A stretch of 64,000 nucleotides of DNA from contig CALFJA010000086.1 of the NCBI GenBank assembly GCA_937877605.1, forward strand, positions 4,384 through 68,383. The letters are read 5' to 3'. Made by a program: the position numbers and the translations under genes. The notes beneath the pieces were generated by a model that was given only the letters and a program-made list of their open reading frames with translations, made no database searches and was not told where the DNA came from. Origin of the DNA: an uncultured Prevotellaceae bacterium (GTDB lineage Bacteria > Bacteroidota > Bacteroidia > Bacteroidales > Bacteroidaceae). Positions 11,455 to 49,609 of the stretch are shown here, piece by piece (position 1 is the first letter of the stretch; the number at the start of each line of letters is the position of its first letter).

Positions 11455-11734
11455 TTCCTCCCGACTTTAACTGCTGTTTGATGGATGTGATGGGACGGAA
11501 TTGCAACACAAGTTTTGGCGGTACCAGCATGCGCTGACCGGAAGATGGATTGACCACGATTCGCTCCAAGCGTTTCTTGATTTCAAAAGTGCCGAAATTT
11601 TGCACGGAAAGGTTGTTTCCTTGCTCGAACTGATGTCCCATTTCGGCAATCAGCGTACGGACAATCTTTTGCGCCTGGGCCTGTGTGTAGCCCGTCCGCC
11701 GTGACAATTCGGTGATAAATTCTTTGTTGTTCAT
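11441..11734 (-). CDS. HU family DNA-binding protein
   Basis: 97-aa ORF: MNNKEFITELSRRTGYTQAQAQKIVRTLIAEM...FGTFEIKKRLERIVVNPSSGQRMLVPPK. Confidence 0.85.
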   Translation of the reverse strand: MNNKEFITELSRRTGYTQAQAQKIVRTLIAEMGHQFEQGNNLSVQNFGTFEIKKRLERIVVNPSSGQRMLVPPKLVLQFRPITSIKQQLKSGGNENG

Positions 11735-14050: not shown

Positions 14051-14682
14051 AATCTGATAATTTGCTTTGCAAAAGTATAAAAAATCTCACAAATATGTGC
14101 GAACTGCCGGCAAATTAATTGTAAAAAAATCAATTCTTTGAAATCTCTGTAATAAATAATAATAACATCATGTATTAAAGCAAGTTAAGTAATTATTTCT
14201 ACAAAATGCTTTAATAAAATTAGATAAGGGGAAGAAAAAATCAGCATGAAAAATCCGCAAAAGAGATGTTAAAATTTGTTTTTCAAGGCCGTTCCCCCTT
14301 ATTTTTCTGCCGATTTCACCGATATTTTTCCCTGTTTTTCGGCTTTTCTGACTGCATTTTCCATTGTTTCGCACGCCAAAAGAGTCCATTTCGCATTCCA
14401 AGACCTATCCTTTTATGGTGCAAATGGGCTCCTTTCGGAACGCGCTCTGCCGTCGGACTGTCCTATTGTAAAGACAAATTTCTGATTATCAGGCGCTTAC
14501 GAAAAGTGCCCAAATTCTTCAGGATTTGGGCACAACAGTGGTATCAATCACAAATTATTGATTCTGGAGACACTTGTTTTTTTCAGTTATCGGACATCTG
14601 CATTACAAATTTCATACGATGCACCCTTCCCATATTTTTTCGGGATGCTGCACAAAGTTTTTTATTTATAAAAAGATTTTAA

Positions 14683-16194: not shown

Positions 16195-17118
16195 TTGCGA
16201 ACTCCCATGCTTTCCCGCATCCTACACACCACTGCCCTGCTCTTTGTCTTCGTCCTGGCACAGGCTCAAAGCAAGGGACTGCCACAGAATACCGCCCAGC
16301 TGGCATACATCGGCAAGTACAAGCACATTGCCGTTGAGCAGATGAAACGCTATGGCATCCCTGCCAGCATCACGCTGGCGCAGGGCATTCTGGAAAGCCG
16401 TTCAGGGCTGAGCGACCTTGCCACGAAGGGGAACAACCACTTCGGCATCAAGTGCCACGGCTGGACCGGTGCTACCGTCTATCACGACGATGACGAGCGG
16501 CAGGAATGCTTCAGGGCCTATAGGCATGCCCGGGACAGCTACGAGGACCACAGCCTGTTCCTCGTGAACAGCAGCCGCTATCGTCCGCTGTTCACGCTTT
16601 CGAGAACCGACTACAAGGGCTGGGCACGGGGGTTGAAGGCCTGTGGGTATGCTACCAATCCGCAGTATGCCGACCTGCTCATCGAACTTATTGAGCGCTA
16701 CGATCTCCACCAGTTTGACACCGGCAAGCACCAGCACCACGATATTGGCAATAATGGGAGCAACGATTCCGCCGAGCATCAGATATGGCTGTACAACAAG
16801 AACCTGTATGTTGTGGCCCGTCGTGGCGACACCTTCAAGTCTATCGGCAAGGAGGTGGGCATCTCCTACCGGAAACTGGCGCGCTACAACGAACGCGACA
16901 AGCACGACATGCTTGACGAGGGCGACCTTGTCTACCTGAAAGGCAAGCGTTCAAAGGCTCCCAAGGATTTCAAGAATGTGCCTCACATCGTGCAGCCCGG
17001 CGAGAGTATGTACAGCATTGCACAGAAGTATGGCATCACGCTGAAGTCACTTTACAAGAAGAATGGACTGCAGCCCGACCACAGTATACGGGTTGGAGAA
17101 AGACTTAAAGTATATTAA
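16195..17118 (+). CDS. glucosaminidase-domain peptidoglycan hydrolase with C-terminal LysM repeats
   Basis: ASITLAQGILESRSGLSDLATKGNNHFGIKCH, followed by two LysM-like segments (YVVARRGDTFKSIGKEVG and HIVQPGESMYSIAQKYG). Confidence 0.75.
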   Translation: MRTPMLSRILHTTALLFVFVLAQAQSKGLPQNTAQLAYIGKYKHIAVEQMKRYGIPASITLAQGILESRSGLSDLATKGNNHFGIKCHGWTGATVYHDDDERQECFRAYRHARDSYEDHSLFLVNSSRYRPLFTLSRTDYKGWARGLKACGYATNPQYADLLIELIERYDLHQFDTGKHQHHDIGNNGSNDSAEHQIWLYNKNLYVVARRGDTFKSIGKEVGISYRKLARYNERDKHDMLDEGDLVYLKGKRSKAPKDFKNVPHIVQPGESMYSIAQKYGITLKSLYKKNGLQPDHSIRVGERLKVY

Positions 17119-18386
17119 TGTATATGCAACAGATGTCCCTTCGATTGCTCCGCTGCATGCTGTTGCTGCTTTCTATTGCAGCCGGCCATGCCTTTGCCCA
17201 GGATTTCGGCGATTACTTTCAGGAGAAGACGCTGCGCATTGACTATGTGCTCACCGGCGATGCCAATGAGCAGGAGATCAGTCTCGACTGCCTGAGTTGC
17301 CTTCCGCAGTGGTACGGCAAGCGTTTCCGTCTTGCCGAGACGCCGGTGGAGGGCAACGGGCAGATAAGCGTCTACGACCATCGTTCACATGTGCTTATCT
17401 ACAAGCACAGTTTCTCCACGCTCTTCCAGGAATGGCTTTCCTATCCTGAGGCAAAGACCTGCAGGAAGGCCTTTGAGCATGTGATGCTCATCCCCTACCC
17501 GAAGGACAGCGTGGAGATAAGCATTGAGTTGCGCAACAACCGCAGGGAGGTGGTTGCTTCGCTGACGCATACCGTTTCGCCCGATGACATTCTCATACAG
17601 CCCAAGGGTTACGGTTGTGTCACTCCCTACACCATCGTACAGCAGGCTGCTGACACGCTTCATTGTGTGCGCATCGCTTTTGTGGCTGAAGGTTATCAAG
17701 AAAAGGAGATGCCTATTTTCATGGGCGATGTGGCGGTTGCCGTCGATGCCCTTTTCCAGCACGAGCCCTTCAAGCGCAACCGGGAAGATTTTCAGATTAT
17801 TGCCGTGCAGTCCCCTTCTGCCGACAGCGGTGTCAGCGAGCCGAAGCACGGCAGTTGGAAGGCAACCGCCGTCGGCTCGCACTTCGACACTTTCTACATG
17901 GACCGCTACCTGACGACCCAGCGCATGAAAGTGCTGCACGACCTGCTGGCGGGTACTCCCTATGACCACATCATCGTTTTGGCGAACACCAGCAACTACG
18001 GTGGCGGCGGCATTCTGAACCACTACAATCTCTCCATGACCCATCATCCGAAATTCCGTCAGGTGGTGGTGCACGAGTTCGGTCACAGTTTTGCCGGACT
18101 TGCCGACGAGTATGCGTATGAGTCAGAGCAAATTCCGATGTATCCTCCCGATGTGGAGCCATGGGAGCCGAACATCACCACGCTGGTGAGTTTCGAGGAT
18201 AAGTGGTCTGGGTTCATGGAGAAGGCTGACGGCATTGGGCTGTATGAGGGTGCGGGATATAATCTTAAGGGTATTTACCGTGCCTTCCCCGACTGCCGTA
18301 TGCGTACGAACGAGCATCCGGAATTCTGTCTGGTCTGCCAGCAGGCAATCCAGGAAGTCATCGGTTTCTATACTGGCAAACAATAA
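17118..18386 (+). CDS. M64-family (IgA peptidase-like) zinc metallopeptidase
   Basis: Signal peptide and an HEFGHSFAGLADEY zinc motif. Size and layout fit the M64 family. Confidence 0.75.
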   Translation: MYMQQMSLRLLRCMLLLLSIAAGHAFAQDFGDYFQEKTLRIDYVLTGDANEQEISLDCLSCLPQWYGKRFRLAETPVEGNGQISVYDHRSHVLIYKHSFSTLFQEWLSYPEAKTCRKAFEHVMLIPYPKDSVEISIELRNNRREVVASLTHTVSPDDILIQPKGYGCVTPYTIVQQAADTLHCVRIAFVAEGYQEKEMPIFMGDVAVAVDALFQHEPFKRNREDFQIIAVQSPSADSGVSEPKHGSWKATAVGSHFDTFYMDRYLTTQRMKVLHDLLAGTPYDHIIVLANTSNYGGGGILNHYNLSMTHHPKFRQVVVHEFGHSFAGLADEYAYESEQIPMYPPDVEPWEPNITTLVSFEDKWSGFMEKADGIGLYEGAGYNLKGIYRAFPDCRMRTNEHPEFCLVCQQAIQEVIGFYTGKQ

Positions 18387-18412
18387 CCAATAGCTATTTC
18401 CGAGTCCATCGC

Positions 18413-19000
18413 ATGTCCCGTCTGAGAATGATATTACTTTGCCTGCTAGTTGTTCCGCTGTGTCATGCCCAGATGAAAGACAGCGAGCGATTGGGTATTG
18501 CCATTGAGTATTTCCAGTCGGGCAAGTATCAGGAAGCCCGGAATATTTTGTTGGAGCTGGACAAGTCTTACACCCTCAACCCCCGTTTCAGGGCATACCT
18601 GGGTGTATGCTGTTTCTATGAATGGGACTTCACGAAGGCGGTGGAGGTGCTTGACTCGGTTATTCCTCAGCTCACCACGCTCTCCCCTCAGGAGAGATCG
18701 GTCTACGCCTATGCCGCAGCGGAGAGTCATTTTGTCTTGGCGCACTACGGGGAAGCCATCCCCTACTTTGTTCAGGTATTGTCGCTTTGCCATCCTGACG
18801 AGCGTGGCGAAGCGTATTTCAAGTTGGCCTTCTGCCATCTTTCGGAAGAAGACTATGTGCGCGCCTATGGTTGTTTGGAGCAGTCGTTGAGTTACTACGA
18901 GCGCTACCAGTGCACTCCGGAGCATCAGGGTCGGATGGTTCAGATTCGGAATATGTTGTTGGGCGCGGAAGCGCGTGTAAAGCGTTTGATAAGGGAGTAA
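18413..19000 (+). CDS. small secreted TPR protein
   Basis: 195-aa ORF with a signal peptide and TPR-like repeats (YFQSGKYQEARNILLEL and similar). Confidence 0.5.
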   Translation: MSRLRMILLCLLVVPLCHAQMKDSERLGIAIEYFQSGKYQEARNILLELDKSYTLNPRFRAYLGVCCFYEWDFTKAVEVLDSVIPQLTTLSPQERSVYAYAAAESHFVLAHYGEAIPYFVQVLSLCHPDERGEAYFKLAFCHLSEEDYVRAYGCLEQSLSYYERYQCTPEHQGRMVQIRNMLLGAEARVKRLIRE

Positions 19001-19213
19001 TGGGACACAACCGACGGAGCAGCAAGGGCAAAGAGAACTTTCTCTTTGCCGAGTCGCGACGGAGGAAAAGGCGGCAGCCTTAAATATTATTGAGATCAGT
19101 TCGCTTGGGGATGCGTTTTTGCGTCCCTATGTGGTTTTGAGGTTGTAAGGTTGGAGGTTTGGTTCTTGCCTGTGGCGAGCGCATAGCGAGTGTTTGGGAG
19201 TTGAGGAATGTTT

Positions 19214-20392
19214 TTAGTCCATTCTGTTGAGGTAGTCTTGGTATGTGAAGTGTCTGAGTGTTTCGAGTTGTCCGTTTGTGTGTAGTATTGCGATGTCTGG
19301 GTGTTGGAGTCCGTTGAACATGTGTGTTTTGACGGTTGTGTAGTGTATCATGTCTTGGAAGATGATGTTTTCTCCGATTTGTAGTTGATGGTCGAACTGG
19401 TATGCGTCGATGTAGTCACCTGCGAGGCATGAGTTGCCTGCGAGTCGGTAGGTGGTTTGGTTGTTTGGGGGGTTGGTGGTTTGGTTGTTTGGGGGGTTGG
19501 TGGTTTGGTTGTTTTGGAGTGGTGTGTTTATTGTTTTTGCGTTTTTGACTTGTGGTTTGTATGGCATTTCGAGTGTGTCTGGCATGTGGCATGCGAATGA
19601 GACGTTGAGTATGGCTGTTTTTATGTTATGTTGTGTGACGATGTCGTTGACTTGTGCGACGAGTGTTCCTGTTTGCCATAGGAATGCGGATCCTGGTTCG
19701 AGTATGAGTTGCAGGTTTGGGTATTGTTTTTTGAAGTTGTTGAGTAGTTGTATGAGTAGTTTTTGGTTATAGTTTTTGTGTGTGACGAGGTGTCCTCCTC
19801 CGAAGTTTATCCATTTGAGTTTTGGCAGCCAGTGTTGGAATTTTTGTGTTATGTGTTGTAGTGTTTGCTGGAATTCTTCTGCTGTGCTTTCGCAGTGGTT
19901 GTGGCAGTGGAATCCTTGTATGTATGTTGGTAATTGTTTTGGGAGTTGTTGTTGTGTGATTCCGAATCTGGAGCCTGTTGTGCAGGGGTTGTATTGTTGT
20001 GTTTTGACGGTTGAGAATTCGGGGTTGATTCTGATTCCGATTGAGATGTCTGGGTTTATTTTTTGTGCTATGTGTGCGTATTGTTGTGCTTGTGTGATTG
20101 AGTTGAAGGTGAGGTGTGATGAGAGTTTTGCGAGTGTTTTTATGTTTTGTTGGTTGTATGCGGGTGTGTATGTGTGTGTTTTTGTTCCGAATTTTTGTGT
20201 GGCGAGTATTGCTTCGTATGTTGATGATGCCGTTGTTGCGTTGATGTATTGGCGGAAGATTGGGAATGTTTTCCAGAGTGCGAATGCCTTGAGTGCGAGT
20301 ATGAATTGTGCTCCGGTTTGTTGTTGTACTTGTTGTATGAGTTGTAGGTTTTGCCGGAGTAGTTTTTCTTCGATGATGTAGGTTGGTGTCAT
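19214..20392 (-). CDS. nspC: carboxynorspermidine/carboxyspermidine decarboxylase
   Basis: 392-aa ORF with ILALKAFALWKTFPIFRQYINATTASSTYEA and INFGGGH. It carries an atypical NNQTTNPP repeat insertion and a strongly Q/T/N/H/K-shifted composition. Confidence 0.8.
   Translation of the reverse strand: MTPTYIIEEKLLRQNLQLIQQVQQQTGAQFILALKAFALWKTFPIFRQYINATTASSTYEAILATQKFGTKTHTYTPAYNQQNIKTLAKLSSHLTFNSITQAQQYAHIAQKINPDISIGIRINPEFSTVKTQQYNPCTTGSRFGITQQQLPKQLPTYIQGFHCHNHCESTAEEFQQTLQHITQKFQHWLPKLKWINFGGGHLVTHKNYNQKLLIQLLNNFKKQYPNLQLILEPGSAFLWQTGTLVAQVNDIVTQHNIKTAILNVSFACHMPDTLEMPYKPQVKNAKTINTPLQNNQTTNPPNNQTTNPPNNQTTYRLAGNSCLAGDYIDAYQFDHQLQIGENIIFQDMIHYTTVKTHMFNGLQHPDIAILHTNGQLETLRHFTYQDYLNRMD
19450..19516. 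repeat. 24-nt in-frame tandem repeat inside nspC (2 perfect copies plus 1 partial)
   Basis: GGTGGTTTGGTTGTTTGGGGGGTT at 19450-19473 and 19474-19497, with a partial third copy to about 19516. It encodes NNQTTNPP NNQTTNPP NNQTT on the minus strand. Confidence 0.95.
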
Positions 20393-20467
20393 GGTGGTTG
20401 TTTGGTTGTTTGGGTGTAAAGTTAGGATTTTTATTTGAGATATGGTTGTTGTTTATTGTATTTTTTG

Positions 20468-20475
20468 TATTTTTG
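20468..20475 (+). promoter_or_regulatory. candidate -7 promoter box TATTTTTG for the thiE-like and prs genes
   Basis: Matches TAnnTTTG, 30 nt upstream of the ATG at 20505. Confidence 0.4.
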
Positions 20476-20504
20476 CGGTTAGATTATTAAGTTGCTTTGG
20501 AGTT

Positions 20505-21119
20505 ATGAAGTTAGTTGTTATGACGCGTTCCTCGTTTTTTGTGGAGGAGGATAAGATACTTTCGAGTTTGTTTGAGGAGGGTCTTGACCGTCTTCATTTG
20601 TACAAGCCTGGTGCGTCTCCTTTGTTTTCGGAGCGTTTGTTGTCGTTGTTGGATGAGGTTTACCACAGGCGTATTATGGTTCATGAGCATTTTTACCTGA
20701 AGGATGAGTTTGGTCTTGGTGGTATCCACATTGATGCGGCTGATGATCGTGTGGTTCCGAAGGGTTACAGGGGTAGGATAAGCCGTGGTTGCACGGATTT
20801 ATCGGAGTTGGGTGTGTTGAAGAGGTGTTCGGATTATGTTTTTCTGCGTAACATTTTCGACAGTATAGAGTACAAGGATCGTGGTGAGAAGTCGTCGTTT
20901 ATGATGTCGGATTTGGAGCGTGCGTCGTCTGCGGGCTTGATAGACAAGCATGTGTATGCGCTGGGTGGGATGCGTCTTGAGAATGTTCATTTGGCAAAGG
21001 AGTTGGGTTTTGGTGGTGTTGTTATCTGCGGTGATTTGTGGAATCGTTTTGACATTCAGTCGGAGCGTGATTTCACTGGTATTATGAAGTATTTTGAGAA
21101 GTTGCGTAAGGCGATGTAG
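20505..21119 (+). CDS. thiamine-phosphate synthase-like (ThiE/TenI family) protein
   Basis: The ORF track starts at 20442, but that Cys/Val/Phe-rich extension looks like translated GT-rich leader. MKLVVMTRSS...EEGLDRLHLYKPG resembles the short Bacteroidota ThiE-like proteins. Confidence 0.55.
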   Translation: MKLVVMTRSSFFVEEDKILSSLFEEGLDRLHLYKPGASPLFSERLLSLLDEVYHRRIMVHEHFYLKDEFGLGGIHIDAADDRVVPKGYRGRISRGCTDLSELGVLKRCSDYVFLRNIFDSIEYKDRGEKSSFMMSDLERASSAGLIDKHVYALGGMRLENVHLAKELGFGGVVICGDLWNRFDIQSERDFTGIMKYFEKLRKAM

Positions 21120-21248
21120 TTGGTGGAATGAGGTTGTGAGGTTATGAGGTGTGAGGTCCTCCCGACTCGCGTGCTCGTAGGAGCGCAGTAGCGAGCGATG
21201 AGGTGGAGGGTTGTGAGTACTATTTTATTACTATATTATTATGTTATT

Positions 21249-22190
21249 ATGGAGGCGAGTAAGCAATATAAGGTATTTTCGGGTAGTGGCAGCCGTTATC
21301 TGGCAGAGAAGATTTGCTGGCATCTTGGTTGTGAGTTGGGTAAGAGTTCGTTGACTCGTTTTTCGGACGGTGAGTTTTGCGTGTCGTTTGAGGAGTCTAT
21401 CCGTGGCAAGGAAGTGTATCTGGTTCAGAGTACTTTTCCGAGCAGTGACAATTTGATGGAGTTGCTGTTGCTGATAGATGCTGCGAAGCGTGCTTCTGCG
21501 CATCATATCATTGCTGTTATTCCTTATTTCGGCTGGGCTCGTCAGGACCGTAAGGACAGGCCTCGTGTGAGCATTGCGGCGAAGTTGGTTGCGGACATGT
21601 TGTCGGCGGCTGGTGTGAACCGTGTTATGACGATGGACTTGCATGCGGACCAGATTCAGGGATTTTTCAACATTCCTGTGGACCATTTGTATGCTTCCGG
21701 TGTTTTGCTGCCTTATATGGAGGGTCTGCACTTGCCGGATCTTGTGATAGCGTCTCCTGATGTGGGTGGTTCGAAGCGTGCGAACTCTTATGCGAAGTAT
21801 ATGGGTTTGCCTTTGGTTTTGTGCAACAAGAAGCGTGCTCGTGCGAATGTTGTGGAGAGTATTCAGATTATCGGTGATGTGAAGGACAAGAATGTTATTA
21901 TCATTGATGACATGGTAGACACGGCAGGTACGATAGCGAAGGCTGCTGACATCATGATGAGCGAGGGTGCGAAGAGTGTTCGTGCATGTGCTACTCATGG
22001 TGTGATGAGCGGTAATGCGGTTGAGACTATTGAGCGTTCGTCGATTACGGAATTGGTGTTTACTGACACGATACCTTTCCATCATGAGTCGCCGAAGATC
22101 AAGCAGTTGTCTGTTGCGGGTCAGTTTGCGGAGATTATCCGTCGTGTGAACAACAACGAGAGTATTTCGTCTCAATATGCGATTAGGTAG
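21249..22190 (+). CDS. prs: ribose-phosphate pyrophosphokinase
   Basis: YFGWARQDRK, MDLHADQIQGFF and IIDDMVDTAGT motifs. The start is taken at MEASKQYKVFSG rather than the upstream Met at 21198. Confidence 0.92.
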   Translation: MEASKQYKVFSGSGSRYLAEKICWHLGCELGKSSLTRFSDGEFCVSFEESIRGKEVYLVQSTFPSSDNLMELLLLIDAAKRASAHHIIAVIPYFGWARQDRKDRPRVSIAAKLVADMLSAAGVNRVMTMDLHADQIQGFFNIPVDHLYASGVLLPYMEGLHLPDLVIASPDVGGSKRANSYAKYMGLPLVLCNKKRARANVVESIQIIGDVKDKNVIIIDDMVDTAGTIAKAADIMMSEGAKSVRACATHGVMSGNAVETIERSSITELVFTDTIPFHHESPKIKQLSVAGQFAEIIRRVNNNESISSQYAIR

Positions 22191-22251
22191 GTGGAATGAG
22201 GAATTTCTTAAGACTCGTAAACTCGTATAAGCACAGTAGCGAGTTAAGAAA

Positions 22252-22281
22252 AGGTCACTCCCTGTTGGGGTGACCTTTTTC
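22252..22281. terminator. bidirectional hairpin between convergent prs and the glucan phosphorylase gene
   Basis: AGGTCACTCC (22252-22261) pairs with GGGGTGACCT (22267-22276), including one G.U pair. An A-run precedes it and TTTTT follows. Confidence 0.6.
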
Positions 22282-22304
22282 TGTGTGGAAGGTGGAATGT
22301 GGTA

Positions 22305-24866
22305 TTATTCGAGCCATTTTACATAGTTGAAGTCCTGTCGGTGTGGTAGGTTTGCATTCTTTGGGTACATTCGTACGCAGCATCGGAATGCTCCGGCCTC
22401 GTCTGGTGAGAAGTTTGCCTCGAATGTGAAGAGGTTTCCTTCTCTTCGTGTGACTTTGAAGGGTCGTACGGTGTGTATTTGCCTGTCGTCTGCGGACTGG
22501 TCGTTCTTGAGTGTGACGAGTTCGAGTCCGATGGCGTCGTCGAGTCCTTGTTCGTCGATGACATACTTGACGGTGTATTCCTTTCCTGTTTCTCCTCCGC
22601 TGTGTAGCACTTCGTCTTCTTTGTAAACGACTTTAATGGCATCCCATCGTTGTGCGACGGTTTCTTTCCATGCTGCGAGGTCTTTTGCGAGTCGGTTGTC
22701 GTTGGCGGCAAGTTTCTTGAATCGCTTTGCTTCCTTGGTGTAGAACTTGTCGTAGTAGTCGTCGAGTTGCCTCTTCATGGTGTAATGGGGTGCGATTGTG
22801 GCAATGGAGTTTTTGATTACCTTGATCCAATCTGTGCTGTATCCCTTTTTGTTGATATTGTAATAGAGGGGTATGATTTCGTTCTCGAGCAATCCGTAGA
22901 TGGTGGCTGCGTCGAGTTGGTCCTGATATGCCTGGTTCTGGTAAGTGCGTTTTTCGGTGAGTGCCCATCCGGCTCCCTTGCGGTAGCCTTCGAGCCACCA
23001 TCCGTCGAGGACTGAGAGGTTTACGACTCCGTTCATCTCTGCTTTTTCTCCTGATGTTCCGGAAGCCTCGAGGGGTCTTGTTGGTGTGTTCATCCAGATG
23101 TCGACGCCGCTGACGAGTCTTCGTGCGAGTTGCATGTCGTAGTCTTCGAGGAAGATTATCTTTCCGAGGAATTCGGGTCGCTGGCTGATTTCGAAAATTT
23201 TCTTGATGAGTCCCTGTCCTGCCCCATCGGCGGGATGTGCCTTACCGGAGAAGAAGAAGAGTACAGGATGTTCGGGGTTGTTGACGATTTTGGAGAGTCT
23301 GTCGAGGTCGGTGAAGAGGAGGTGTGCCCGCTTGTATGTTGCAAAGCGTCGGCAGAATCCGATCATCAGTGCGTTGGGGTTGATGCGTTCGAGGAGTGAA
23401 ACGACGCGTGATGGGTCTCCCTGGTTCTTGAGCCATGTTTCGGTGAATTTCTCTCGTATGTAGTTCACCAGTTTGTTTTTCAGTGCCATTCGTGTTTCCC
23501 AGATTTCTGCATCGGGTACCTCGTAGATGGCATGCCATATTTCCTCGTTGCTCTGGTCTGCCATGAAGGTTTCGGCGAAGTACTTGGCATAGAGTCTGCG
23601 CCATTCTGTTGCTGCCCATGTGGGGAAATGTACTCCGTTGGTGACATAGCCTACATGGTTTTCTTCGGGATAGTAGCTCTTCCAAAGTGGTGCGAACATT
23701 TTCTGGCTTACCCATCCGTGTAGTTTGCTGACGCCGTTGATTTCCTGACAGGTGTTGCAAGCGAAGGTTGACATGCAGAAGCGCTCCTCGAGGTTGTCGG
23801 GATTGGTGCGTCCCATGCCGATGAACTCCTGCCATGAGATGCCGAGTTTCTGTGGGTATCCGCTCATATACTTGCCGAAGAGAGCCTCGTCGAAGTAGTC
23901 GTGTCCGGCAGGAACGGGTGTGTGGACTGTATAGAGTGAGGAACTTTTCACGAGTTCGAGTGCTTCGTTGAAGGAAAGTCCCTCGGCGACATAGTCGCAC
24001 AGTCGCTGTAGGTTGCAGAGTGCTGCGTGTCCCTCGTTGCAATGGTAGATGTCTTTCTTTATGCCGAGTCGCTTCAGCAGCAGCATACCTCCGATTCCGA
24101 GGAGGATTTCCTGTTTGAGGCGGTTTTCCCAGTCACCTCCGTATAGGTTGTGCGTGATGGGCTTGTCGAATTCGGAGTTCATGTCGTTGTCGGTATCGAG
24201 CAGATAGAGTTTCACTCGGCCTACATTGACGCGCCATACATAGGCGTGTACATGATAATTCATATAAGGTACGGCAATTACGAGGGGGGTGCCGTCTTCG
24301 TCCAGTTGGCGCTCAATAGGCAGCGAGTTGAAGTTCTGTGCCTCGTTGTTGGCAATCTGCTGTCCCTCGATGCTCAGCGACTGTTTGAAGTAGCCGTATC
24401 TGTAGAGGAAACCGATGGCGCACATGTCCACATTGCTGTCGGATGCTTCCTTGACATAGTCTCCTGCGAGCATGCCAAGACCTCCTGAGTAAATCTTCAG
24501 AACCTGGCTGATGCCGTATTCCATGCAGAAATAGGCTACTGAGGGACGGGTTTTGTCGGGTTTCACATCCATGTATTCGCGGAAATGCTTGTAGACGGTT
24601 TTGAGTTTCTTCATTGCGGCGGCATCCTTTACCAATGCCTGCTTGCGGTCGTAGCTCAGGCGTTCGAGCAGCAATACGGGGTTGTGTCCTACGCTTTCGT
24701 ACAACTCCCTGTCGATGGTGGTAAACAGCGACCGGGCTTCGTGGTTCCAAGCCCACCACATGTTGTGAGCCAATTCGTTTAAGCATTCCAGTTCGGCGGG
24801 AAGACTCGACTTGATGGTGAGTTCCTTCCACTGCGGAGTGTTTGAATAGTCTGATTTGAGTTTCAT
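22305..24866 (-). CDS. alpha-glucan phosphorylase (GT35, with DUF3417-type N-terminus)
   Basis: 853-aa ORF with [14 protein letters not shown] at the N-terminus, and [14 protein letters not shown] (pyridoxal-phosphate Lys region). Confidence 0.85.
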
Positions 24867-24882
24867 AAAAACTGGTATTTAA

Positions 24883-26529
24883 TTAAATGTTGTTTCTCTT
24901 TTTTGCATTTTTCAGTGCATGGTCGTATGCCCTCTCATAGGCTGCGAAGAAATGTTTCCACAGTGCTTTCTTCGAGAGTTGGCGTGCTTTCTTCCGTGCA
25001 CCTTCCTTCTCCGTTTCCGGGAGTTGTGCATAGCGGCTGACGGTCTGCGCCACCTGTTCCGCCACTTCATGGTAGTTGGTGTCGGATCGGTGGATAACTT
25101 CCACTCCGTTCTCTATGGTAGCAACGGCATTGAGTTCTTCTCTTGCCCAGATGCCAAAGCCTGCGAGGTCGGTAGTCACGCAGGGCACGCTGAAGGCGAT
25201 GGCTTCCAGCGGAGTGTAGCCCCAGGGCTCGTAATAGGAAGGATAGATGCAGAGGTCATTACCCAGAACAATGTCGTAGTAGTGCTTATTGATGATGCCG
25301 TCCTCGCCGTCAAGATAGCAGGGGACGAATATTACTTTGACATTGTCTTCGGGGCGGTTGTGGAATCCATGGCGTTTCAGCATTTGGAGCATGCGATCGG
25401 TTTCCATATTGTGCAGCCAGTGGGTAAGATACGGGCAGGCCAGTGCTGCTCCTCTCGGTTGCTTTCCGCTCATCCGGTCGGCAAGGTCTTCGCGCGGGCT
25501 GGCCACCCAGGCGGGGACATTGACAAACGCCAGCACCTGCTTGCCGGCAGGCAAGAGCGCACGCAACCGTGCCATGGCATCGACAAAGACATCGAGACCT
25601 TTGTTGCGGAACTCATACCGTCCACTGGTCGAAACTATCAGGGTGTCTTCCGGCTGATGCCCTCCCGTGAGGCAGTCTGCCACATCCAGCAGTTGTTTCC
25701 TTGCCATCCAGCGCTTGGCTCCGAAGTCTTTTGCGGCAGGAACGAAGTCGTCTTCAAATCCGTTCAGCAACAGTTCGTCTGGCCGGCGTTCCAGCAGTTG
25801 GGTGCATTCCCTTGCGGTAATGGCGCTCACCGTAGTGAAGCAGTCGGCATTCTGTGCTGCTTTTTGCTCGACGGAGTGCTTGCTGTCGACATTCAGTTCG
25901 CGTGCCATCTGGTTGCCGTAGTAACCTGGCAAGTAGGAATAGAGGTCCTTGCCGTTTCCTGCGATGCTCCTGCCCACCGTCGTGGCATGGGTCGTGAAAA
26001 TGGTTGCCACCTGCGGTACATACCTGTGAAGGTACAGCAGCGCAACACCCAGCATCCACTCGTTGGCATGGAAGATAACGCGCTGCCCGTTGAGGAAGTT
26101 GTTGTGAATGTTTTCAACCAGCCGGGCCACGGCATAGGCAAACATGGATGCCTCATCGTAGTCTCCATAGGCATGCAGGCTGTCCACTCCATAGTCTTCC
26201 CACAGATGCAGGTATATCTCGTTCTTGCGGACATAGTACTGTTGCGAGTTAAGAAGAATGGCTATGGGCTGTCCGGGAATGTTCCATCTGCCCACACGGC
26301 ATTTGATGCCTGCCTGGGCGGCCACAGCCTGCCATTCAGTCATGATGCCGCTGTCTTCAGTAAAGGTGGTGTTGCTGTGCTTTCCCAAGTCGGGACCTAT
26401 GAAAACGACCTTGTCTGGAAAGAGTTTCTGCATGGTGTTGGCGCGAGTGGCCAATACGGTATATATACCTCCCACCTTGTTGCAGACTTCCCAGCTGGAT
26501 TCGAAAATAAAATCGGGTTTGAGTTTCAT
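24883..26529 (-). CDS. glycogen synthase (GT3-like, Bacteroidota type)
   Basis: 548-aa ORF. FESSWEVCNKVGGIYTVL is typical of GT3 glycogen synthases. It lies adjacent to the phosphorylase. Confidence 0.8.
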   Translation of the reverse strand: MKLKPDFIFESSWEVCNKVGGIYTVLATRANTMQKLFPDKVVFIGPDLGKHSNTTFTEDSGIMTEWQAVAAQAGIKCRVGRWNIPGQPIAILLNSQQYYVRKNEIYLHLWEDYGVDSLHAYGDYDEASMFAYAVARLVENIHNNFLNGQRVIFHANEWMLGVALLYLHRYVPQVATIFTTHATTVGRSIAGNGKDLYSYLPGYYGNQMARELNVDSKHSVEQKAAQNADCFTTVSAITARECTQLLERRPDELLLNGFEDDFVPAAKDFGAKRWMARKQLLDVADCLTGGHQPEDTLIVSTSGRYEFRNKGLDVFVDAMARLRALLPAGKQVLAFVNVPAWVASPREDLADRMSGKQPRGAALACPYLTHWLHNMETDRMLQMLKRHGFHNRPEDNVKVIFVPCYLDGEDGIINKHYYDIVLGNDLCIYPSYYEPWGYTPLEAIAFSVPCVTTDLAGFGIWAREELNAVATIENGVEVIHRSDTNYHEVAEQVAQTVSRYAQLPETEKEGARKKARQLSKKALWKHFFAAYERAYDHALKNAKKRNNI

Positions 26530-26896: not shown

Positions 26897-29209
26897 TTAT
26901 TCCACCACTTCTTCTGGCGGTGGCGTTTCCGATTGAACCGCCTGTACGCCGCAAGGATTATAGCCGTCAGGGATGTCGAACGAAGCGGTACTCTTATAGT
27001 TCAGGTCCTTGTCGGCCATCACCTTCTTCATATAGATGCCCCAGATGGGGAGTGCTGCGGCGGCACCCTGTCCGTTTGCCATGGAGTCGAAGTGGATGTC
27101 GCGGTCGTCGCCGCCTACCCAGCAGGCACTGACAAGCTGCGGCGTGAATCCAACAAACCATCCGTCGGCATTTCGGTTTGTGGTACCCGTCTTTCCTCCG
27201 ATGGAGCCCTGTATGCCATACAGGCGGCGAACGCGGCTACCTGTACCGCCGTCGATAACGCCCTGCAACTCAATGAGCATTTTGTAGGCACTCTCGGCAT
27301 TGATAACTTCGTTCATGCGGGGCTGGAACTGGGCGATGACATTGCCTTCGGCATCCTCGATGCGCGTTACAAACAACGGAGCACAGCGGATTCCCTTGTT
27401 GGGGAATACGGAATAGGCACTGACCATTTCCGCCACGGACACCTCGCAGGGGCCGAGACAGAGAGCCAGCGACGGATAGATGTTGGGATTGTGAATGCCA
27501 TAGGAATGGAGCAATTCAACAAACTGGTAGGGGTTCATTTCGTTCATGAGGTATGCACTGACCCAGTTGTTCGACTGGGCAAGTCCCCATTTCAAGGTCA
27601 CCATCTCCCCATATCGGGCACGGCTGCCGTTGCGCGGCGTCCACGGCTGCCCGCCGACATAGTAGGTGCGTTGCTCGTTTGGCACGACATCGCAGGGTGA
27701 ATAGCCGTTCTCCATGGCCATGGAATAAAGGAACGGCTTGATGGTAGAACCCACCTGACGCCGACCTGCGGTGACCATGTCATACTGGAAGTGGGCAAAG
27801 TCGATACCTCCGACATAGGCTTTCACCTCGCCTGTCTGTGCCTCCATACTCATAAAGCCCGTACGGAGGAACTTCTTGTAGTAGCGTATGCTGTCGAGTG
27901 GAGTCATCGTGGTATCACGCTCGCCTTGATAGGAGAACACACTCATTTCCACTGGCGTGTTGAAGGCACGGCGTATTTCCTCCTCGCTGGCTCCGTCAGC
28001 CCGCATCACACGGTAACGCTCGCTCTGTTTCATGGCACGGTTCAGGATGTCCTGTACCTGCTTGGCGCTCAAGCGCGACGAATAGGGCGCGTTGGGTTTG
28101 TTCTTGCTCTCGGCAAAGAAGCGTGGCTGCAGGGTGCGACCGACATGCATCTCAACAGCCTCCTCGGCATACTTCTGCATACGGGAGTCGATGGTGGTGA
28201 AAACTTTCAGGCCATCGGTGTAGATGTTGTAGGCAGAACCGTTGCGCTTGAAGTTCTTGTTGCACCATCCGTAGAGCGGATCGGACTCCCACGCGATGGA
28301 GTCGTAGACATACTGTACGCGGTTCCATTCGGGATAGTCGTCCTTGTTCGGTTCCTTTGCCATCATGTACTGGCGGAGGAACTCGCGGAAATAAGTGGCT
28401 GTACCGTCCTTGTGGTCGATACGGTGGAAGTCCAGCTTGAGCTCTTCGGCCGAATGCTTGTCATATTCCGCCTGTGTCAGATAACCGGCCTTGACCATCT
28501 GCTGCAACACCACATTGCGCCGGTTGAGCGCACGGTCGGGGAAACGAACGGGATTGAACAGCGAAGGATTCTTGCAGAGGCCTATCAGCGTGGCACTCTC
28601 GTTCAATGTAAGGTCTTTGGCTTCCTTGTTGAAATAGGTGTTGGCTGCCGACTTGATGCCAACGGCATTGTGCAGGAAGTCGAAATAATTCAAATAAAAG
28701 GCTATGATTTCCTCTTTGGTGTAGTGGCGCTCCAGTTTTACGGCGATGACCCACTCTATCGGTTTTTGGAAAAGACGCTCTATCTTGTTGTGCGCCTTGG
28801 CCGAATAAAGCTGTTTGGCCAGCTGCTGTGTAATAGTGGAACCTCCACCGGCACTGGCTTGCTGGAGTATACCTCGCTTGACGATGGCGCGGCCAAGGGC
28901 AATGTAGTCTATTCCAGAATGTTCGTAGAACCGCTCGTCCTCCGTTGCCACCAGGGCTTTCACCAGATAAGGCGACAGTTGCTCGTAGGGAATGCATATT
29001 CGGTTCTCGCGGTCAATGCTGTAGGTACCTATTATCTTGCCATCGGCTGAATAGACCTGGGTGGCAAAGCGGCTGATGGGATTCTGCAAGTCTTCAATAT
29101 CAGGCATATAGCCGATCCATCCGAACCACACTGCCGTGAAAAACAACAACAACGCCAGTAAGAGGCAGCCGAATGCCTTCCACATTCCAATAATAATTTT
29201 GCGTTTCAT
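26897..29209 (-). CDS. penicillin-binding protein 1A (bifunctional glycosyltransferase/transpeptidase)
   Basis: 770-aa ORF with an N-terminal TM helix, GT51 motifs (ATEDERFYEHSGID, GGSTITQQLAK) and a transpeptidase STIKP motif. Confidence 0.9.
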   Translation of the reverse strand: MKRKIIIGMWKAFGCLLLALLLFFTAVWFGWIGYMPDIEDLQNPISRFATQVYSADGKIIGTYSIDRENRICIPYEQLSPYLVKALVATEDERFYEHSGIDYIALGRAIVKRGILQQASAGGGSTITQQLAKQLYSAKAHNKIERLFQKPIEWVIAVKLERHYTKEEIIAFYLNYFDFLHNAVGIKSAANTYFNKEAKDLTLNESATLIGLCKNPSLFNPVRFPDRALNRRNVVLQQMVKAGYLTQAEYDKHSAEELKLDFHRIDHKDGTATYFREFLRQYMMAKEPNKDDYPEWNRVQYVYDSIAWESDPLYGWCNKNFKRNGSAYNIYTDGLKVFTTIDSRMQKYAEEAVEMHVGRTLQPRFFAESKNKPNAPYSSRLSAKQVQDILNRAMKQSERYRVMRADGASEEEIRRAFNTPVEMSVFSYQGERDTTMTPLDSIRYYKKFLRTGFMSMEAQTGEVKAYVGGIDFAHFQYDMVTAGRRQVGSTIKPFLYSMAMENGYSPCDVVPNEQRTYYVGGQPWTPRNGSRARYGEMVTLKWGLAQSNNWVSAYLMNEMNPYQFVELLHSYGIHNPNIYPSLALCLGPCEVSVAEMVSAYSVFPNKGIRCAPLFVTRIEDAEGNVIAQFQPRMNEVINAESAYKMLIELQGVIDGGTGSRVRRLYGIQGSIGGKTGTTNRNADGWFVGFTPQLVSACWVGGDDRDIHFDSMANGQGAAAALPIWGIYMKKVMADKDLNYKSTASFDIPDGYNPCGVQAVQSETPPPEEVVE

Positions 29210-34711: not shown

Positions 34712-34920
34712 AAATATTATATAAAGGTGTTTCTCAAAAGGCAAAATTACGAATAAGCGCGTAATAAACAAATTATTATAAGGTAAATTATTTTCGGGGA
34801 AAAAGCGGATAGATATGATCAGAATGTATTTTATCCTGTTTTCTTCGGCGTTTTTTTTGCCAGCAAGAAACTTTTCATTATCTTCGCAGGTAAGAACATT
34901 AAGCAATTTATTTCAATACT

Positions 34921-49601: not shown

Positions 49602-49609
49602 TACCTTTG
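49602..49609 (+). promoter_or_regulatory. candidate -7 promoter box TACCTTTG for nrdDG
   Basis: Matches TAnnTTTG, 120 nt upstream of the nrdD ATG, with a T-rich run upstream. Confidence 0.45.

What the first reader, a model, noticed from the sequence alone, without database searches (positions are those of the whole stretch)
19085..24400. About 5-kb island of extreme plus-strand G+T (keto) enrichment that ignores gene orientation and rewrites codon and amino-acid usage
Hand counts of G+T on the plus strand in 60-nt samples:

| Sample | Location | G+T |
|---|---|---|
| 19441-19500 | nspC repeat | 95% |
| 19801-19860 | nspC, minus-strand gene | 72% |
| 21301-21360 | prs, plus-strand gene | 70% |
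| 22441-22500 | phosphorylase, minus-strand gene | 70% |
| 24001-24060 | phosphorylase | 67% |
| 24301-24360 | phosphorylase | 58% |
| 24701-24760 | phosphorylase | 47% |
| 8101-8160 | control, gyrA | 47% |
| 50401-50460 | control, nrdD | 50% |

Further observations:
- The left edge is fairly sharp at about 19085, with a milder rise in the TPR gene just before it.
- Both A and C are depleted on the plus strand.
- Plus-strand genes (thiE-like, prs) use G/T-rich codons, while minus-strand genes (nspC, phosphorylase) use A/C-rich codons.
- NspC has become conspicuously rich in Q, T, N, H, K and P at positions where relatives, as far as I recall, carry E, R, D and G.
- All ORFs are intact, so the pattern is evolutionary rather than an assembly error.

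A strand-specific excess of C-to-T and A-to-G changes is the signature of deamination of a strand that is often single-stranded, as on the G+T-rich heavy strand of vertebrate mtDNA. Possible causes:
- A persistent R-loop or very heavy unidirectional transcription, including antisense across nspC.
- A local replication peculiarity.
- Targeted deaminase activity.
- Recent transfer from a genome with very strong strand skew.

I know of no described mechanism that gives a 5-kb local skew island in Bacteroidota.
Basis: partly seen in the sequence, partly recalled or inferred. Interest (0 to 1): 0.72.

Follow-up and report, generated by a model that had tools for sequence, protein, structure and literature searches.

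The report
Five-kilobase one-strand G+T island in Prevotella
In one uncultured Prevotella lineage, about 5 kb of ordinary housekeeping genes has lost almost every A and C from one DNA strand wherever the proteins allow it, whichever way the genes point; this local, strand-specific pressure is as strong as that on animal mitochondrial DNA and I found no description of it in a bacterial chromosome.

Summary
From 19099 (support 19084-19131) to about 24.2 kb the + strand is 66.5% G+T (76% over 19099-20500), against 49.7% (sd 3.5%) in the rest of the window. No 500-nt window in 2.3 Mb of related loci exceeds 67%.

At 4-fold degenerate sites the + strand is 90-100% G/T from 19.2 to 23.15 kb. This holds in genes of both orientations (nspC -, thiE-like +, prs +, glgP -). 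It fades to background by about 25.4 kb, inside glgP/glgA.

The island is lineage-specific. The closest relative and about 25 loci with the same gene order show none. The genes are native and still under purifying selection. A second assembly carries the identical sequence.

In NspC, Gln is 12.0% against 2.1%, and the protein has 57 unique replacements against 10 in the sister lineage.

Net change is "anything to G or T", and many changes are transversions, so this is not a clean deamination signature. The polarity is opposite to the local replication skew. No mutator or mobile gene lies in the 64 kb.

My best reading is an inference: chronic single-strandedness of the + strand, caused by a rightward DNA or RNA transaction such as an R-loop or strand displacement. 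The phenomenon is real, extreme and unexplained.

The parts
19099..24200 (+). Core of the island. On the + strand A and C are depleted: keto .665 overall, and .85-1.00 at 4-fold degenerate sites.
19084..19131 (.). Sharp left edge: the support interval of the composition change point, best estimate 19099. It lies in the spacer between the convergent TPR and nspC genes. It coincides with a break in gene order relative to every relative examined.
24201..25400 (+). Right-hand decay zone inside glgP and glgA. 4-fold keto falls from .75 to .60. No gene boundary lies here.
17100..19000 (+). Weak left shoulder over the peptidase M64 and TPR genes. Third-position keto is .57-.63 and 4-fold keto about .60, against about .40-.50 in other + genes.
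19214..20392 (-). nspC, carboxynorspermidine decarboxylase. The coding strand is almost pure A/C at third positions (94.6%). The amino-acid composition is rewritten (Q 12.0% against 2.1%). It has 57 lineage-specific replacements against 10 in the sister. 92% of invariant columns are kept.
19447..19518 (+). 24-nt tandem repeat (GGTTGGTGGTTTGGTTGTTTGGGG), in frame, encoding NNQTTNPP in a variable loop of NspC. There are 3 copies here and 4 in the second assembly. A 67-nt run of G/T only starts at 19451.
20502..21119 (+). thiE-like gene (weak TMP-TENI match in the sister's orthologue; the longest ORF starts at 20442). 4-fold sites are 97% G/T.
21249..22190 (+). prs, ribose-phosphate pyrophosphokinase (the longest ORF starts at 21198). 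4-fold sites are 93% G/T.
22305..24866 (-). glgP-type alpha-glucan phosphorylase. The gradient lies within this gene: 4-fold + strand keto is 1.00 at its 3' end and .68-.70 at its 5' end. It is 91% identical in amino acids to the closest relative but only 79% in nucleotides.
24883..26529 (-). Glycogen synthase. This is the last trace of the effect: third-position keto is .582 against an orthologue mean of .438.
19027..19050 (.). 10-bp hairpin (GGCAAAGAGA/UCUCUUUGCC) that folds on either strand. It sits just outside the island and keeps its A and C. It is the likely 3' end of the two convergent transcription units.
19107..19128 (+). Hairpin followed by a U tract, forming only on the + strand; 3 of its 10 pairs are G.U. 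It sits at the very start of the island.
19085..19092 (+). TATTATTG, one mismatch from the Bacteroidota -7 promoter motif TAnnTTTG. If used, it would place a rightward transcription start at about 19097-19099. This is a weak lead: no -33 element is present, and a chance match is likely.
   Evidence: sequence
20468..20475 (+). TATTTTTG, an exact -7 motif upstream of the thiE-like and prs genes. It is the probable promoter of the rightward operon.

Best explanation
Shown:
- In this one Prevotella lineage a long-lasting, strand-specific directional pressure has replaced A and C with G and T on the + strand of a native segment of about 5 kb (19.1-24.2 kb). A 1-2 kb tail follows on the right and a weak shoulder lies on the left.
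- Purifying selection kept the four genes working.
- The pressure saturates neutral sites: 4-fold sites are 90-100% G/T.
- In the periphery it is held in check at NAN codons.
- It forced polar A/C-codon residues (Q, T, N, K) into NspC.

Inferred, my preferred cause:
- The + strand of this segment is chronically single-stranded, because a rightward-moving transaction keeps starting near 19.1 kb and dies out around 24-25 kb.
- The version I favour is a rightward, largely untranslated transcript, antisense to nspC and glgP, that forms R-loops.
- Its RNA is extremely C-poor and G/U-rich. From general knowledge of E. coli Rho, not tested in Bacteroidota, such RNA is a poor substrate for Rho termination.
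- Loss of C would therefore make read-through and R-loops more likely still, which is a self-reinforcing loop.
- On the exposed strand, deamination gives C to U and A to hypoxanthine. Base loss followed by insertion of A opposite the gap gives any base to T. Together these would produce the observed flux to T and G.
For: - Real and extreme. Absent from 2.3 Mb of related loci and from the sister lineage's nspC-prs locus, where third-position keto is .49-.56.
- Filtered by selection, so old and genuine. Third positions are .73-.95 against first and second positions at .49-.68. 92-99% of invariant protein columns are kept. NspC matches a solved carboxynorspermidine decarboxylase at E=1.7e-139.
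- Directional. Polarised changes to G/T against changes to A/C in this lineage: nspC 111 against 12, thiE-like 30 against 2, prs 29 against 6, glgP 91 against 23, glgA 48 against 31. The sister lineage is roughly balanced or biased the other way.
- Graded strength. In nspC every codon class is .96-.98. In the thiE-like, prs and glgP genes the 2-fold NAN codons resist (.32-.53) while 4-fold sites are .82-.97. That is a balance between pressure and codon selection, not a design.
- Independent of gene orientation, and opposite in sign to the background replication skew.
- Geometry. There is a sharp start at 19099 and a decay inside a gene on the right, as expected for something that starts at a site and ends at variable points.
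- The sign matches the non-template strand of a rightward transcript. [quoted passage not shown]
- The neighbouring rightward genes (M64, TPR, thiE-like, prs) all carry the excess on their non-template strand.
- The flux goes mainly to T, then to G, and GC content falls to .40-.43 in the core. This fits deamination plus abasic-site bypass on single-stranded DNA.
Against: - There are no expression, R-loop or single-strand data of any kind.
- No convincing rightward promoter sits at the edge, only a one-mismatch -7 motif without a -33 element. A + strand terminator-like hairpin sits right at the start of the island.
- The RNA would be about half U, and rU:dA hybrids are weak (general knowledge), so R-loops are not obviously favoured thermodynamically.
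- The spectrum is not diagnostic. Transversions such as C>G and A>T are abundant, and C>G is not explained by the proposed chemistry.
- The sharp left edge coincides with a break in gene order. It may therefore be historical, with newer DNA joined to an already skewed segment, rather than a start site.
- At 4-fold sites the profile is a plateau, not an exponential decay.
- Only one lineage is known. The two assemblies differ by no substitution over 21.2 kb, only by one copy of a 24-nt repeat, and may derive from the same population or even the same reads. There is no polymorphism to show the process is still active.
Confidence: 0.4

Rival explanations
1. Nick- or origin-primed DNA synthesis. 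A site near 19.1 kb is repeatedly nicked or used as a unidirectional origin: a cryptic plasmid-type or R-loop-primed origin, or a pseudo-oriT cut by a relaxase encoded elsewhere. Rightward strand-displacement or nick-translation synthesis either leaves the old + strand single-stranded or rebuilds it with an error-prone polymerase that favours G.T-type misinsertions. Tracts end within a few kb.
For: - It has the same geometry as the main explanation: a sharp start and a variable end.
- It needs no transcript, so the terminator-like hairpin at the edge is no obstacle.
- An insertion bias towards G and T would explain 'anything to G/T', including transversions.
- From my own knowledge, mutation footprints of Pol I on ColE1 plasmids are strand-asymmetric and fade over a few kb from the origin.
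Against: - No Rep, relaxase, primase, nickase, integrase or error-prone polymerase gene lies in the 64 kb.
- There are no DnaA boxes or iterons at the edge.
- The edge region has no similarity to 72,556 plasmids.
- To drive neutral sites to 95-100% the events would have to outnumber normal replication errors many-fold.
Confidence: 0.2
2. Selection or a fixation bias on composition itself. A G+T-only strand is favoured for a structural or functional reason, and the pattern is not a mutation bias. Possible reasons are a strand that cannot form hairpins or palindromes, one that is preferred by RecA-type proteins, one that forms G-quadruplex or Z-DNA, or an unstructured A/C-rich nspC mRNA.
For: - Changes to G/T are raised and changes to A/C are suppressed in every class, transitions and transversions alike. 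A fixation bias predicts exactly this.
- A strand made only of G and T cannot contain palindromes or Watson-Crick hairpins; this follows directly from the sequence.
- A/C persists where hairpins or repeated intergenic elements occur (19027-19050, 21155-21200).
Against: - Per-site selection on hundreds of synonymous sites across four unrelated genes of both orientations has no known rationale. The gradient ends in the middle of a gene and the left shoulder is weak.
- mRNA-level benefits would have opposite signs for the + and - genes.
- No relative shows even a weak version.
Confidence: 0.12
3. A relic of an earlier genomic context. The segment acquired its skew elsewhere or earlier, for example next to a former origin or in a long-lived single-stranded or rolling-circle state. 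A rearrangement then placed normal DNA to its left. The process is no longer active.
For: - The left edge coincides with a break in gene order relative to all relatives.
- The two assemblies differ by no substitution over 21.2 kb, which includes the 5-kb island.
Against: - The order glgA-glgP-prs-thiE-like-nspC is the ancestral Prevotella order, and the right-hand decay lies inside it.
- The left flank also carries a weak excess of the same sign.
- This relocates the unknown mechanism without explaining it.
Confidence: 0.15
4. Enzymatic hypermutation by a nucleic-acid deaminase: a toxin, a dual C/A deaminase, or an editing-plus-reverse-transcription route such as a diversity-generating retroelement.
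For: - A and C are the two deaminable bases, and both are lost from one strand.
- Strand-coordinated clusters are typical of deaminases acting on single-stranded DNA (general knowledge).
Against: - No deaminase or reverse transcriptase gene lies in the window.
- There is no template repeat.
- Apparent context effects (CpG, ApC) follow codon class, not DNA context.
- A burst would hit all codon positions equally and would create stop codons. Instead third positions are far more affected than first and second positions, and the proteins are conserved.
- Transversions are abundant.
Confidence: 0.05
5. Artefact or foreign DNA: a mis-assembly, chemical conversion or damage in vitro, or a recent import from a genome with extreme skew.
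For: Only one lineage is known. Both assemblies come from metagenomes and may share reads.
Against: - A second contig of 94 kb from ENA assembly ERZ922529 is identical over 21.2 kb except for one extra repeat unit.
- The pattern respects reading frames, codon degeneracy classes and catalytic residues. No artefact does that.
- The best hits of every island protein are Prevotella, with the same sister lineage as the flanking genes, and the gene order is ancestral.
Confidence: 0.03

Closest known systems
Heavy-strand compositional asymmetry of vertebrate mitochondrial DNA (strand-displacement replication)
   Same: - One strand is strongly G+T-rich and the other A+C-rich, irrespective of gene orientation.
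- The effect is strongest at synonymous sites, and amino-acid usage is dragged along.
- The magnitude is comparable: 4-fold sites here are 85-100% keto.
- The cause is attributed to time spent single-stranded (from my own knowledge).
   Different: - Here it is a 5-kb patch inside a normal bacterial chromosome, with a sharp edge. It is not a whole replicon.
- No origin is identified.
- Net changes include many transversions, whereas mtDNA asymmetry is dominated by C-to-T and A-to-G.
Transcription-associated mutational strand asymmetry (G+T excess on the non-template strand; C deamination on the non-transcribed strand in E. coli)
   Same: - The sign of the skew fits the non-template strand of rightward transcription.
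- The rightward genes in and beside the island carry the excess on their non-template strand.
- The mechanism is established in bacteria and vertebrates (PMC2927911).
   Different: - Known skews are about 0.06-0.1 (PMC2927911). Here GC skew is 0.32-0.55, and neutral sites are saturated.
- In nspC and glgP the excess lies on the template strand of the annotated gene, so a dominant antisense transcript has to be postulated.
R-loop-prone GC-skewed regions (immunoglobulin switch regions, CpG-island promoters)
   Same: - They are kilobase-scale regions with a G-rich non-template strand, a defined upstream boundary and a ragged downstream end (PMC4245955 abstract, as listed).
- GC skew here far exceeds the values associated with R-loop formation.
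   Different: - Those regions are non-coding, often repetitive and eukaryotic.
- Here the DNA is single-copy coding sequence for four enzymes.
- It is as T-rich as it is G-rich.
- No RNA:DNA hybrid has been demonstrated.
Replication-associated leading/lagging strand skew in bacteria
   Same: [quoted passage not shown]
   Different: - Replication skew spans whole replichores at low amplitude.
- The island is 5 kb and 5-10 times stronger.
- Its sign is opposite to the orientation-corrected background of this window.
Strand-coordinated hypermutation clusters (APOBEC/AID kataegis, somatic hypermutation, deaminase toxins, engineered polymerase-deaminase mutators)
   Same: They are local and strand-coordinated, they start near a defined site, and they fade over a few kb.
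   Different: - Those are somatic or one-off events that hit all codon positions with a sequence-context signature.
- Here the pattern is germline, filtered by selection, lacks a context signature and involves all base classes.

Membership tests
Replication-associated strand skew | Sign agrees with the replichore background and the skew extends over the replichore | tested here: not met
   Outside the island, coding-strand keto at 4-fold sites is .40 in + genes and .47 in - genes. The + strand is therefore slightly A+C-rich. The island has the opposite sign and is confined to about 5-8 kb.
Replication-associated strand skew | Sign switch at an origin or terminus (DnaA boxes, dif) | tested here: not met
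   There is no sign switch; the composition returns to the same background on both sides. Only three scattered DnaA-box-like 9-mers were found, at 10207, 40793 and 56685, none near the island.
Transcription-associated mutational asymmetry | G+T excess on the non-template strand of the transcribed unit | tested here: inconclusive
   Met for the thiE-like, prs, M64 and TPR genes. The opposite holds for nspC, glgP and glgA unless an antisense transcript dominates.
Transcription-associated mutational asymmetry | A transcript whose start and end match the borders of the skew | not testable with these tools
   No RNA data are available. There is only a one-mismatch -7 motif at 19085-19092 and a weak + strand hairpin at 24088-24105 near the right-hand decay.
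R-loop-forming region | Strong positive GC skew on the non-template strand over hundreds of bases or more | tested here: met
   GC skew is +.55 over 19099-20500 and +.32 over 19099-24200.
R-loop-forming region | Demonstrated RNA:DNA hybrid with a displaced strand | not testable with these tools
   This needs DRIP-seq or bisulfite/permanganate footprinting.
mtDNA-type strand-displacement asymmetry | Asymmetry carried mainly by C-to-T and A-to-G on the displaced strand | tested here: inconclusive
   - Transitions are raised. In nspC, A>G is 30 and C>T 42, against G>A 0 and T>C 3.
- Transversions are raised too: C>G 29, A>T 10, G>T 17.
- In glgP, 4-fold sites show 148 transversions against 55 transitions.
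- Sites are saturated.
mtDNA-type strand-displacement asymmetry | An identifiable origin of displacement synthesis | tested here: not met
   No Rep or primase gene, no iterons, no DnaA boxes and no plasmid similarity at the edge.
Deaminase hypermutation / kataegis | Only C (or C and A) is targeted, in a characteristic sequence context, regardless of codon position | tested here: not met
   - Third positions are far more affected than first and second positions.
- Apparent contexts track codon class, not DNA context.
- G>T and T>G are also raised.
Deaminase hypermutation / kataegis | Deaminase encoded at or near the locus | tested here: not met
   A Pfam scan of 46 of the 52 ORFs of the 64-kb window, including every gene within about 20 kb of the island, found none. 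The rest of the genome could not be examined.
Diversity-generating retroelement | Reverse transcriptase plus a template/variable repeat pair with adenine-specific differences | tested here: not met
   There is no RT, no repeat pair of that kind, and the changes are not adenine-specific.
Horizontally acquired genomic island | Foreign phylogenetic affinity, broken gene order, mobility genes or a tRNA at the border | tested here: not met
   - The order glgA-glgP-prs-thiE-like-nspC is conserved in more than 20 Prevotella loci.
- The sister lineage is the same for island and flank genes.
- There is no tRNA and no integrase.
- Only the left border coincides with a break in gene order.

The most novel reading that the evidence does not exclude
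A bacterial chromosome contains a self-sustaining zone in which one strand is persistently exposed, for example an R-loop made by a C-poor antisense transcript that escapes Rho. This has driven 5 kb of essential-type genes to a two-letter alphabet on one strand at all free sites and has remodelled an enzyme's amino-acid composition. It would be a natural, heritable, locus-specific and strand-specific mutator state: the first chromosomal bacterial counterpart of the mitochondrial heavy strand or of immunoglobulin switch regions.
Probability: 0.35. Interest if true: 0.9.

Novelty: new variant of a known kind. Interest (0 to 1): 0.75.

Why it matters
- Local mutation pressure is usually treated as a small correction to genome-wide rates. 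Here a few kilobases behave like a different genome. Neutral sites are at 90-100% G/T on one strand, and the composition of one enzyme is rewritten while it stays recognisably functional.
- If the cause is chronic R-loop or displaced-strand exposure, the locus is a natural experiment. It shows how much damage single-stranded DNA suffers in vivo, and how far a protein can be pushed by biased mutation (Q from 2.1% to 12.0%).
- It could also test whether C-poor transcripts escape Rho termination, and whether such a state can feed on itself.
- It gives a simple statistic, keto fraction at 4-fold sites, with which all genomes could be screened for further cases.
- It is a caution for annotation and binning. 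The island produces long spurious antisense ORFs and atypical k-mer content inside a native region.

Tried and rejected
- **Recent foreign import:** rejected on gene order and on a consistent sister lineage.
- **Assembly glitch:** rejected by a second contig and by frame-aware structure. Independence of the two assemblies is not proven.
- **Exaggerated replichore skew:** rejected because the sign is opposite.
- **One-off deaminase burst:** rejected by codon-position dependence.
- **CpG-specific loss of C:** I first saw C/(C+T) of .07-.10 before G. Then I found that it tracks codon class: 4-fold NCG against NCA, and retention at Met ATG and in NAR/NAY codons. I dropped it as a DNA-context signal.
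- **Transition-only model:** I considered that transversions might be two-step artefacts, a baseline transversion followed by a fast transition. The excess of transversion differences in glgP over more distant normal pairs argues against a pure version. Saturation in the other genes prevents a firm answer.
- **General acceleration of protein evolution in the island:** rejected. Only NspC is accelerated (57 against 10). The thiE-like, prs, glgP and glgA genes are not. My reading is that A/C-rich codons encode tolerable polar residues, whereas G/T-rich codons encode G, V, F, L, C and W.
- **Closer relatives, to obtain polymorphism:**
  - The 5.8-billion-protein search found only this sequence, in one 90% cluster with the variant from the second assembly that carries one extra repeat unit. 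The next hit is at 60%.
  - The metagenome scan gave at best 55%.
  - An exact look-up of the window's own NspC returned nothing.
- **Other searches with no result bearing on the island:**
  - Rfam: no hits.
  - tRNA: none.
  - Plasmid similarity of the edge: no match.
  - Phage similarity: only prs homologues.
  - Four literature searches found no description of such an island.
- **Similarity of the 24-nt repeat to sequences in both nspC untranslated regions** (families D1/D2): judged likely chance in two-letter sequence.

Full report
**1.

A full-window computation shows the + strand at 49.7% G+T (sd 3.5%, maximum 60% in 500-nt windows) everywhere except a block starting near 19.1 kb. In that block, 500-nt windows reach 70-78%.

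- In 100-nt steps the value jumps from .48 (19001-19100) to .75 (19101-19200). It stays at .69-.83 to 20.5 kb.60-.72 to 23.5 kb, and about .57 to 25.5 kb.
- A likelihood change-point analysis puts the left edge at 19099, support 19084-19131.
- Both A (.14) and C (.096) are depleted in the core. GC skew is +.55 and AT skew -.51.
- No 500-nt window in 162 related loci (2.3 Mb) lies outside .344-.672.

**2. Genes**

Pfam and orthologue comparison give the following genes.

| Gene | Coordinates | Strand |
|---|---|---|
| TPR protein | 18413-19000 | + |
| nspC (carboxynorspermidine decarboxylase) | 19214-20392 | - |
| thiE-like (weak TMP-TENI match in the sister) | 20502-21119 | + |
| prs | 21249-22190 | + |
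| glgP-type phosphorylase | 22305-24866 | - |
| Glycogen synthase (glgA) | 24883-26529 | - |
| Class A PBP | 26897-29209 | - |

- The order glgA-glgP-prs-thiE-like-nspC is conserved in more than 20 Prevotella and Segatella loci. The segment is therefore native.
- Everything else in the 64 kb is housekeeping. A Pfam scan of 46 of the 52 ORFs, including every gene within about 20 kb of the island, found no reverse transcriptase, deaminase, relaxase, Rep or integrase. There is no tRNA and no Rfam family.

**3. The signal sits at free sites and ignores gene orientation**

Third-codon-position keto on the + strand, with the orthologue mean for comparison:

| Gene | This lineage | Orthologue mean |
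|---|---|---|
| nspC | .946 | .41 |
| thiE-like | .863 | .45 |
| prs | .818 | .48 |
| glgP | .729 | .44 |
| glgA | .582 | .44 |

- The 120 consecutive third positions at 19871-20228 are all G or T.
- At 4-fold degenerate sites the + strand is 90-100% G/T from 19.2 to 23.15 kb. It is .85-.90 to 23.97 kb.68-.75 to 24.8 kb.60-.68 to 25.4 kb, then background. Background bins have mean .49, sd .11 and maximum .775.
- At neutral sites the island is therefore a plateau of about 4 kb, with a sharp left edge and a right-hand decay of about 2 kb. The decay falls inside glgP and glgA, not at a gene boundary.
- A weak shoulder of the same sign covers the two + genes to the left. Their third-position keto is .57-.63, above all the other + genes.

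**4. It is evolutionary, old and filtered by selection**

- First and second codon positions are shifted much less than third positions. In nspC they are .68 and .65 against .47 and .53. In prs they are not shifted at all.
- 92% of NspC columns invariant in 22 orthologues are kept. The figures for the other genes are 96% (thiE-like), 89% (prs), 99% (glgP) and 98% (glgA).
- NspC matches a solved carboxynorspermidine decarboxylase (36gy) at E=1.7e-139 over its full length.
- Codon classes show a graded balance between the pressure and codon selection.
  - In nspC every class is at .96-.98.
  - In the thiE-like and prs genes, 4-fold sites are 93-97% G/T, yet 2-fold NAY codons keep C in 32-42% of cases.
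  - In glgP, 4-fold A/(A+G) is .82, yet 2-fold NAR codons reach only .53.
- An apparent CpG effect dissolves into this codon-class effect.

**5. It is specific to this lineage**

- The closest relative found is a cattle-rumen Prevotella MAG (L001). Its glgP is 91% identical in amino acids and 79% in nucleotides.
- L082 carries the PGK-prs-thiE-like-nspC locus. Judging from the record names, it probably comes from the same assembly as L001. Its third-position values there are normal.49-.56.
- I used that sister plus outgroups to polarise changes.

| Gene | This lineage, to G/T : to A/C | Sister, to G/T : to A/C |
|---|---|---|
| nspC | 111 : 12 | 5 : 27 |
| thiE-like | 30 : 2 | 9 : 7 |
| prs | 29 : 6 | 25 : 28 |
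| glgP | 91 : 23 | 44 : 34 |
| glgA | 48 : 31 | 44 : 38 |

- Only NspC is accelerated at the protein level: 57 unique replacements against 10 (p=4e-9). The other four genes are balanced.
- NspC composition has shifted.
  - Up: Q from 2.1% to 12.0%, T from 5.6% to 11.2%, N from 3.9% to 8.4%.
  - Down: E from 8.0% to 2.8%, R from 5.5% to 1.8%.
- My inference for why NspC alone is affected: the A/C-rich coding strand of nspC leads to polar residues (Q, T, N, K) that protein surfaces tolerate. The G/T-rich coding strand of the thiE-like and prs genes would lead to G, V, F, L, C and W, which selection resists.

**6. It is not an artefact or an import**

- A second contig of 94 kb, from ENA assembly ERZ922529 of run ERR1278104 (a bioreactor metagenome), is identical over 21.2 kb. 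The only difference is one extra copy of a 24-nt in-frame repeat in nspC.
- The two assemblies may share reads, so this excludes an assembler glitch but does not provide an independent population.
- Frame awareness, codon-class structure and conserved catalytic architecture exclude chemical or sequencing artefacts.
- Foreign origin is excluded by gene order and by the consistent sister lineage.

**7. What the substitution pattern does and does not say**

- The net pattern is 'new base is G or T'. In nspC the polarised counts are A>G 30, C>T 42, C>G 29, A>T 10, G>T 17 and T>G 8, against G>A 0, T>C 3, G>C 1 and T>A 8.
- At glgP 4-fold sites compared with the sister there are 55 transition and 148 transversion differences. 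A>T (54) exceeds A>G (25), C>G (31) exceeds C>T (17), and G>T is 34.
- Transversion differences make up 44% of those sites. In more distant normal pairs they make up 24-35%.
- In the other genes 4-fold sites are saturated, and the controls also keep purine/pyrimidine class only 54-64% of the time.
- A pure C-to-T plus A-to-G deamination signature is therefore not demonstrated, and in glgP it is disfavoured.
- The dominant flux is to T, then to G, and GC content falls to .40-.43 in the core.
- From general knowledge, this is what deamination plus abasic-site bypass by insertion of A on an exposed strand would give. C>G remains unexplained.

**8. Relation to replication and transcription**

- Outside the island, coding-strand keto at 4-fold sites is .40 in + genes and .47 in - genes. 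After correcting for orientation, the + strand is slightly A+C-rich, which is lagging-like. Most genes (34 of 52) are on the - strand.
- The island therefore has the opposite sign to the local replication skew.
- Its sign is that of the non-template strand of a rightward transcript. [quoted passage not shown]
- The rightward genes in and beside the island carry the excess on their non-template strand. nspC, glgP and glgA carry it on their template strand, so a dominant rightward antisense transcript has to be assumed.
- At the edge there is only a one-mismatch -7 motif (TATTATTG, 19085-19092), which would place a start at about 19097-19099. There is no -33 element, and such a match is expected by chance in roughly one of four 50-nt intervals (my estimate).
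- A + strand hairpin with a U tract sits at 19107-19128. A hairpin that folds on either strand sits at 19027-19050.

**9. Best explanation and rivals**

*Shown.* A long-lasting, lineage-specific, strand-specific directional pressure acts on a sharply bounded native segment and is opposed by purifying and codon selection.

*Inferred (confidence about 0.4).* The + strand is chronically single-stranded because a rightward transaction starts near 19.1 kb and ends variably around 24-25 kb.

- I favour an untranslated, R-loop-forming antisense transcript.
- Its extreme C-poverty (4-13% C) would, by analogy with E. coli Rho, hinder Rho loading. That would make the state self-reinforcing.

*Rivals.*

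- Nick- or origin-primed displacement or error-prone synthesis: 0.2.
- A relic of an earlier context, cut by the rearrangement at the left edge: 0.15.
- Selection or a fixation bias on composition: 0.12.
- Deaminase or RT systems: 0.05.
- Artefact or import: 0.03.

The sharp left edge coincides with a break in gene order. It may therefore be historical rather than a start site. This is the main weakness of any 'start-site' model.

**10. Novelty**

- Four full-text searches found no description of such a local island in bacteria.
- The closest analogues are the vertebrate mitochondrial heavy strand, transcription-associated skew and R-loop-prone GC-skewed regions.
- The island differs from each in scale, amplitude or context, as set out under Closest known systems.
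- I rate it a new variant of a known kind, namely strand-asymmetric mutation pressure. Its amplitude and locality are, as far as I can tell, unprecedented for a bacterial chromosome. Interest: 0.75.

Noticed in passing
window 19447-19518 (and L081 equivalent): The 24-nt in-frame tandem repeat in nspC (NNQTTNPP) has 3 copies in the window and 4 in the second assembly. This is the only difference in 21.2 kb. It is either a real length polymorphism or an assembler collapse.
   Followed up: partly
window 19776-20381 (+), 19452-19772 (+), 21231-22175 (-), 23242-24042 (-): Long antisense ORFs of 106-314 aa lie inside the island. Both strands are depleted in stop codons, which need both T and A/G, so these are by-products and could be mis-called as genes.
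   Followed up: partly
window 21111-21195 and 22179-22243 (also 22287-22306, 19171-19195): The spacers after the thiE-like and prs genes share a repeated element (GGTGGAATGAGG ... GACTCG..CTCGTA..AGC.CAGTAGCGAG). It keeps its A and C in the middle of the G/T-rich region, which suggests a conserved structured element such as a terminator or a REP-like repeat.
   Followed up: partly
window 55852-58236: A low-GC (.41-.45) pair of genes: an EcoRI-type adenine methyltransferase (E=5e-145) and a GmrSD-N/HNH endonuclease. This is probably an inserted restriction or defence module.
   Followed up: no
window 30698-31606 (+): One ORF combines a peptide methionine sulfoxide reductase domain (PMSR) with a nucleoside 2-deoxyribosyltransferase-like domain, an unusual fusion.
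   Followed up: no
window 10270-11734 (-): Two adjacent HU-family genes. One encodes a 394-aa protein with an N-terminal HU domain and a long extension with no family match.
   Followed up: no
window 14001-14500, 34501-35000 and 49001-50000: Short stretches of low GC (.35-.40), partly intergenic, upstream of the dcuB-like, pta-like and nrdD genes. They are probably promoter or regulatory regions.
   Followed up: no
L001 and L082 (sister lineage): In the closest relative the prs-thiE-like-nspC cluster sits next to pgk/queF/queC and serA/serC instead of glgP. The glgP-prs junction has therefore been rearranged in the sister, while this lineage keeps the ancestral order.
   Followed up: partly
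window 21249-22190 (prs): Prs has lost 23 of 206 columns that are invariant in 26 orthologues (89% kept, against 99.6% in controls). It shows no keto shift at first or second positions. The sister lineage is just as divergent (12 against 20 unique changes). This looks like lineage depth and not an effect of the island.
   Followed up: partly
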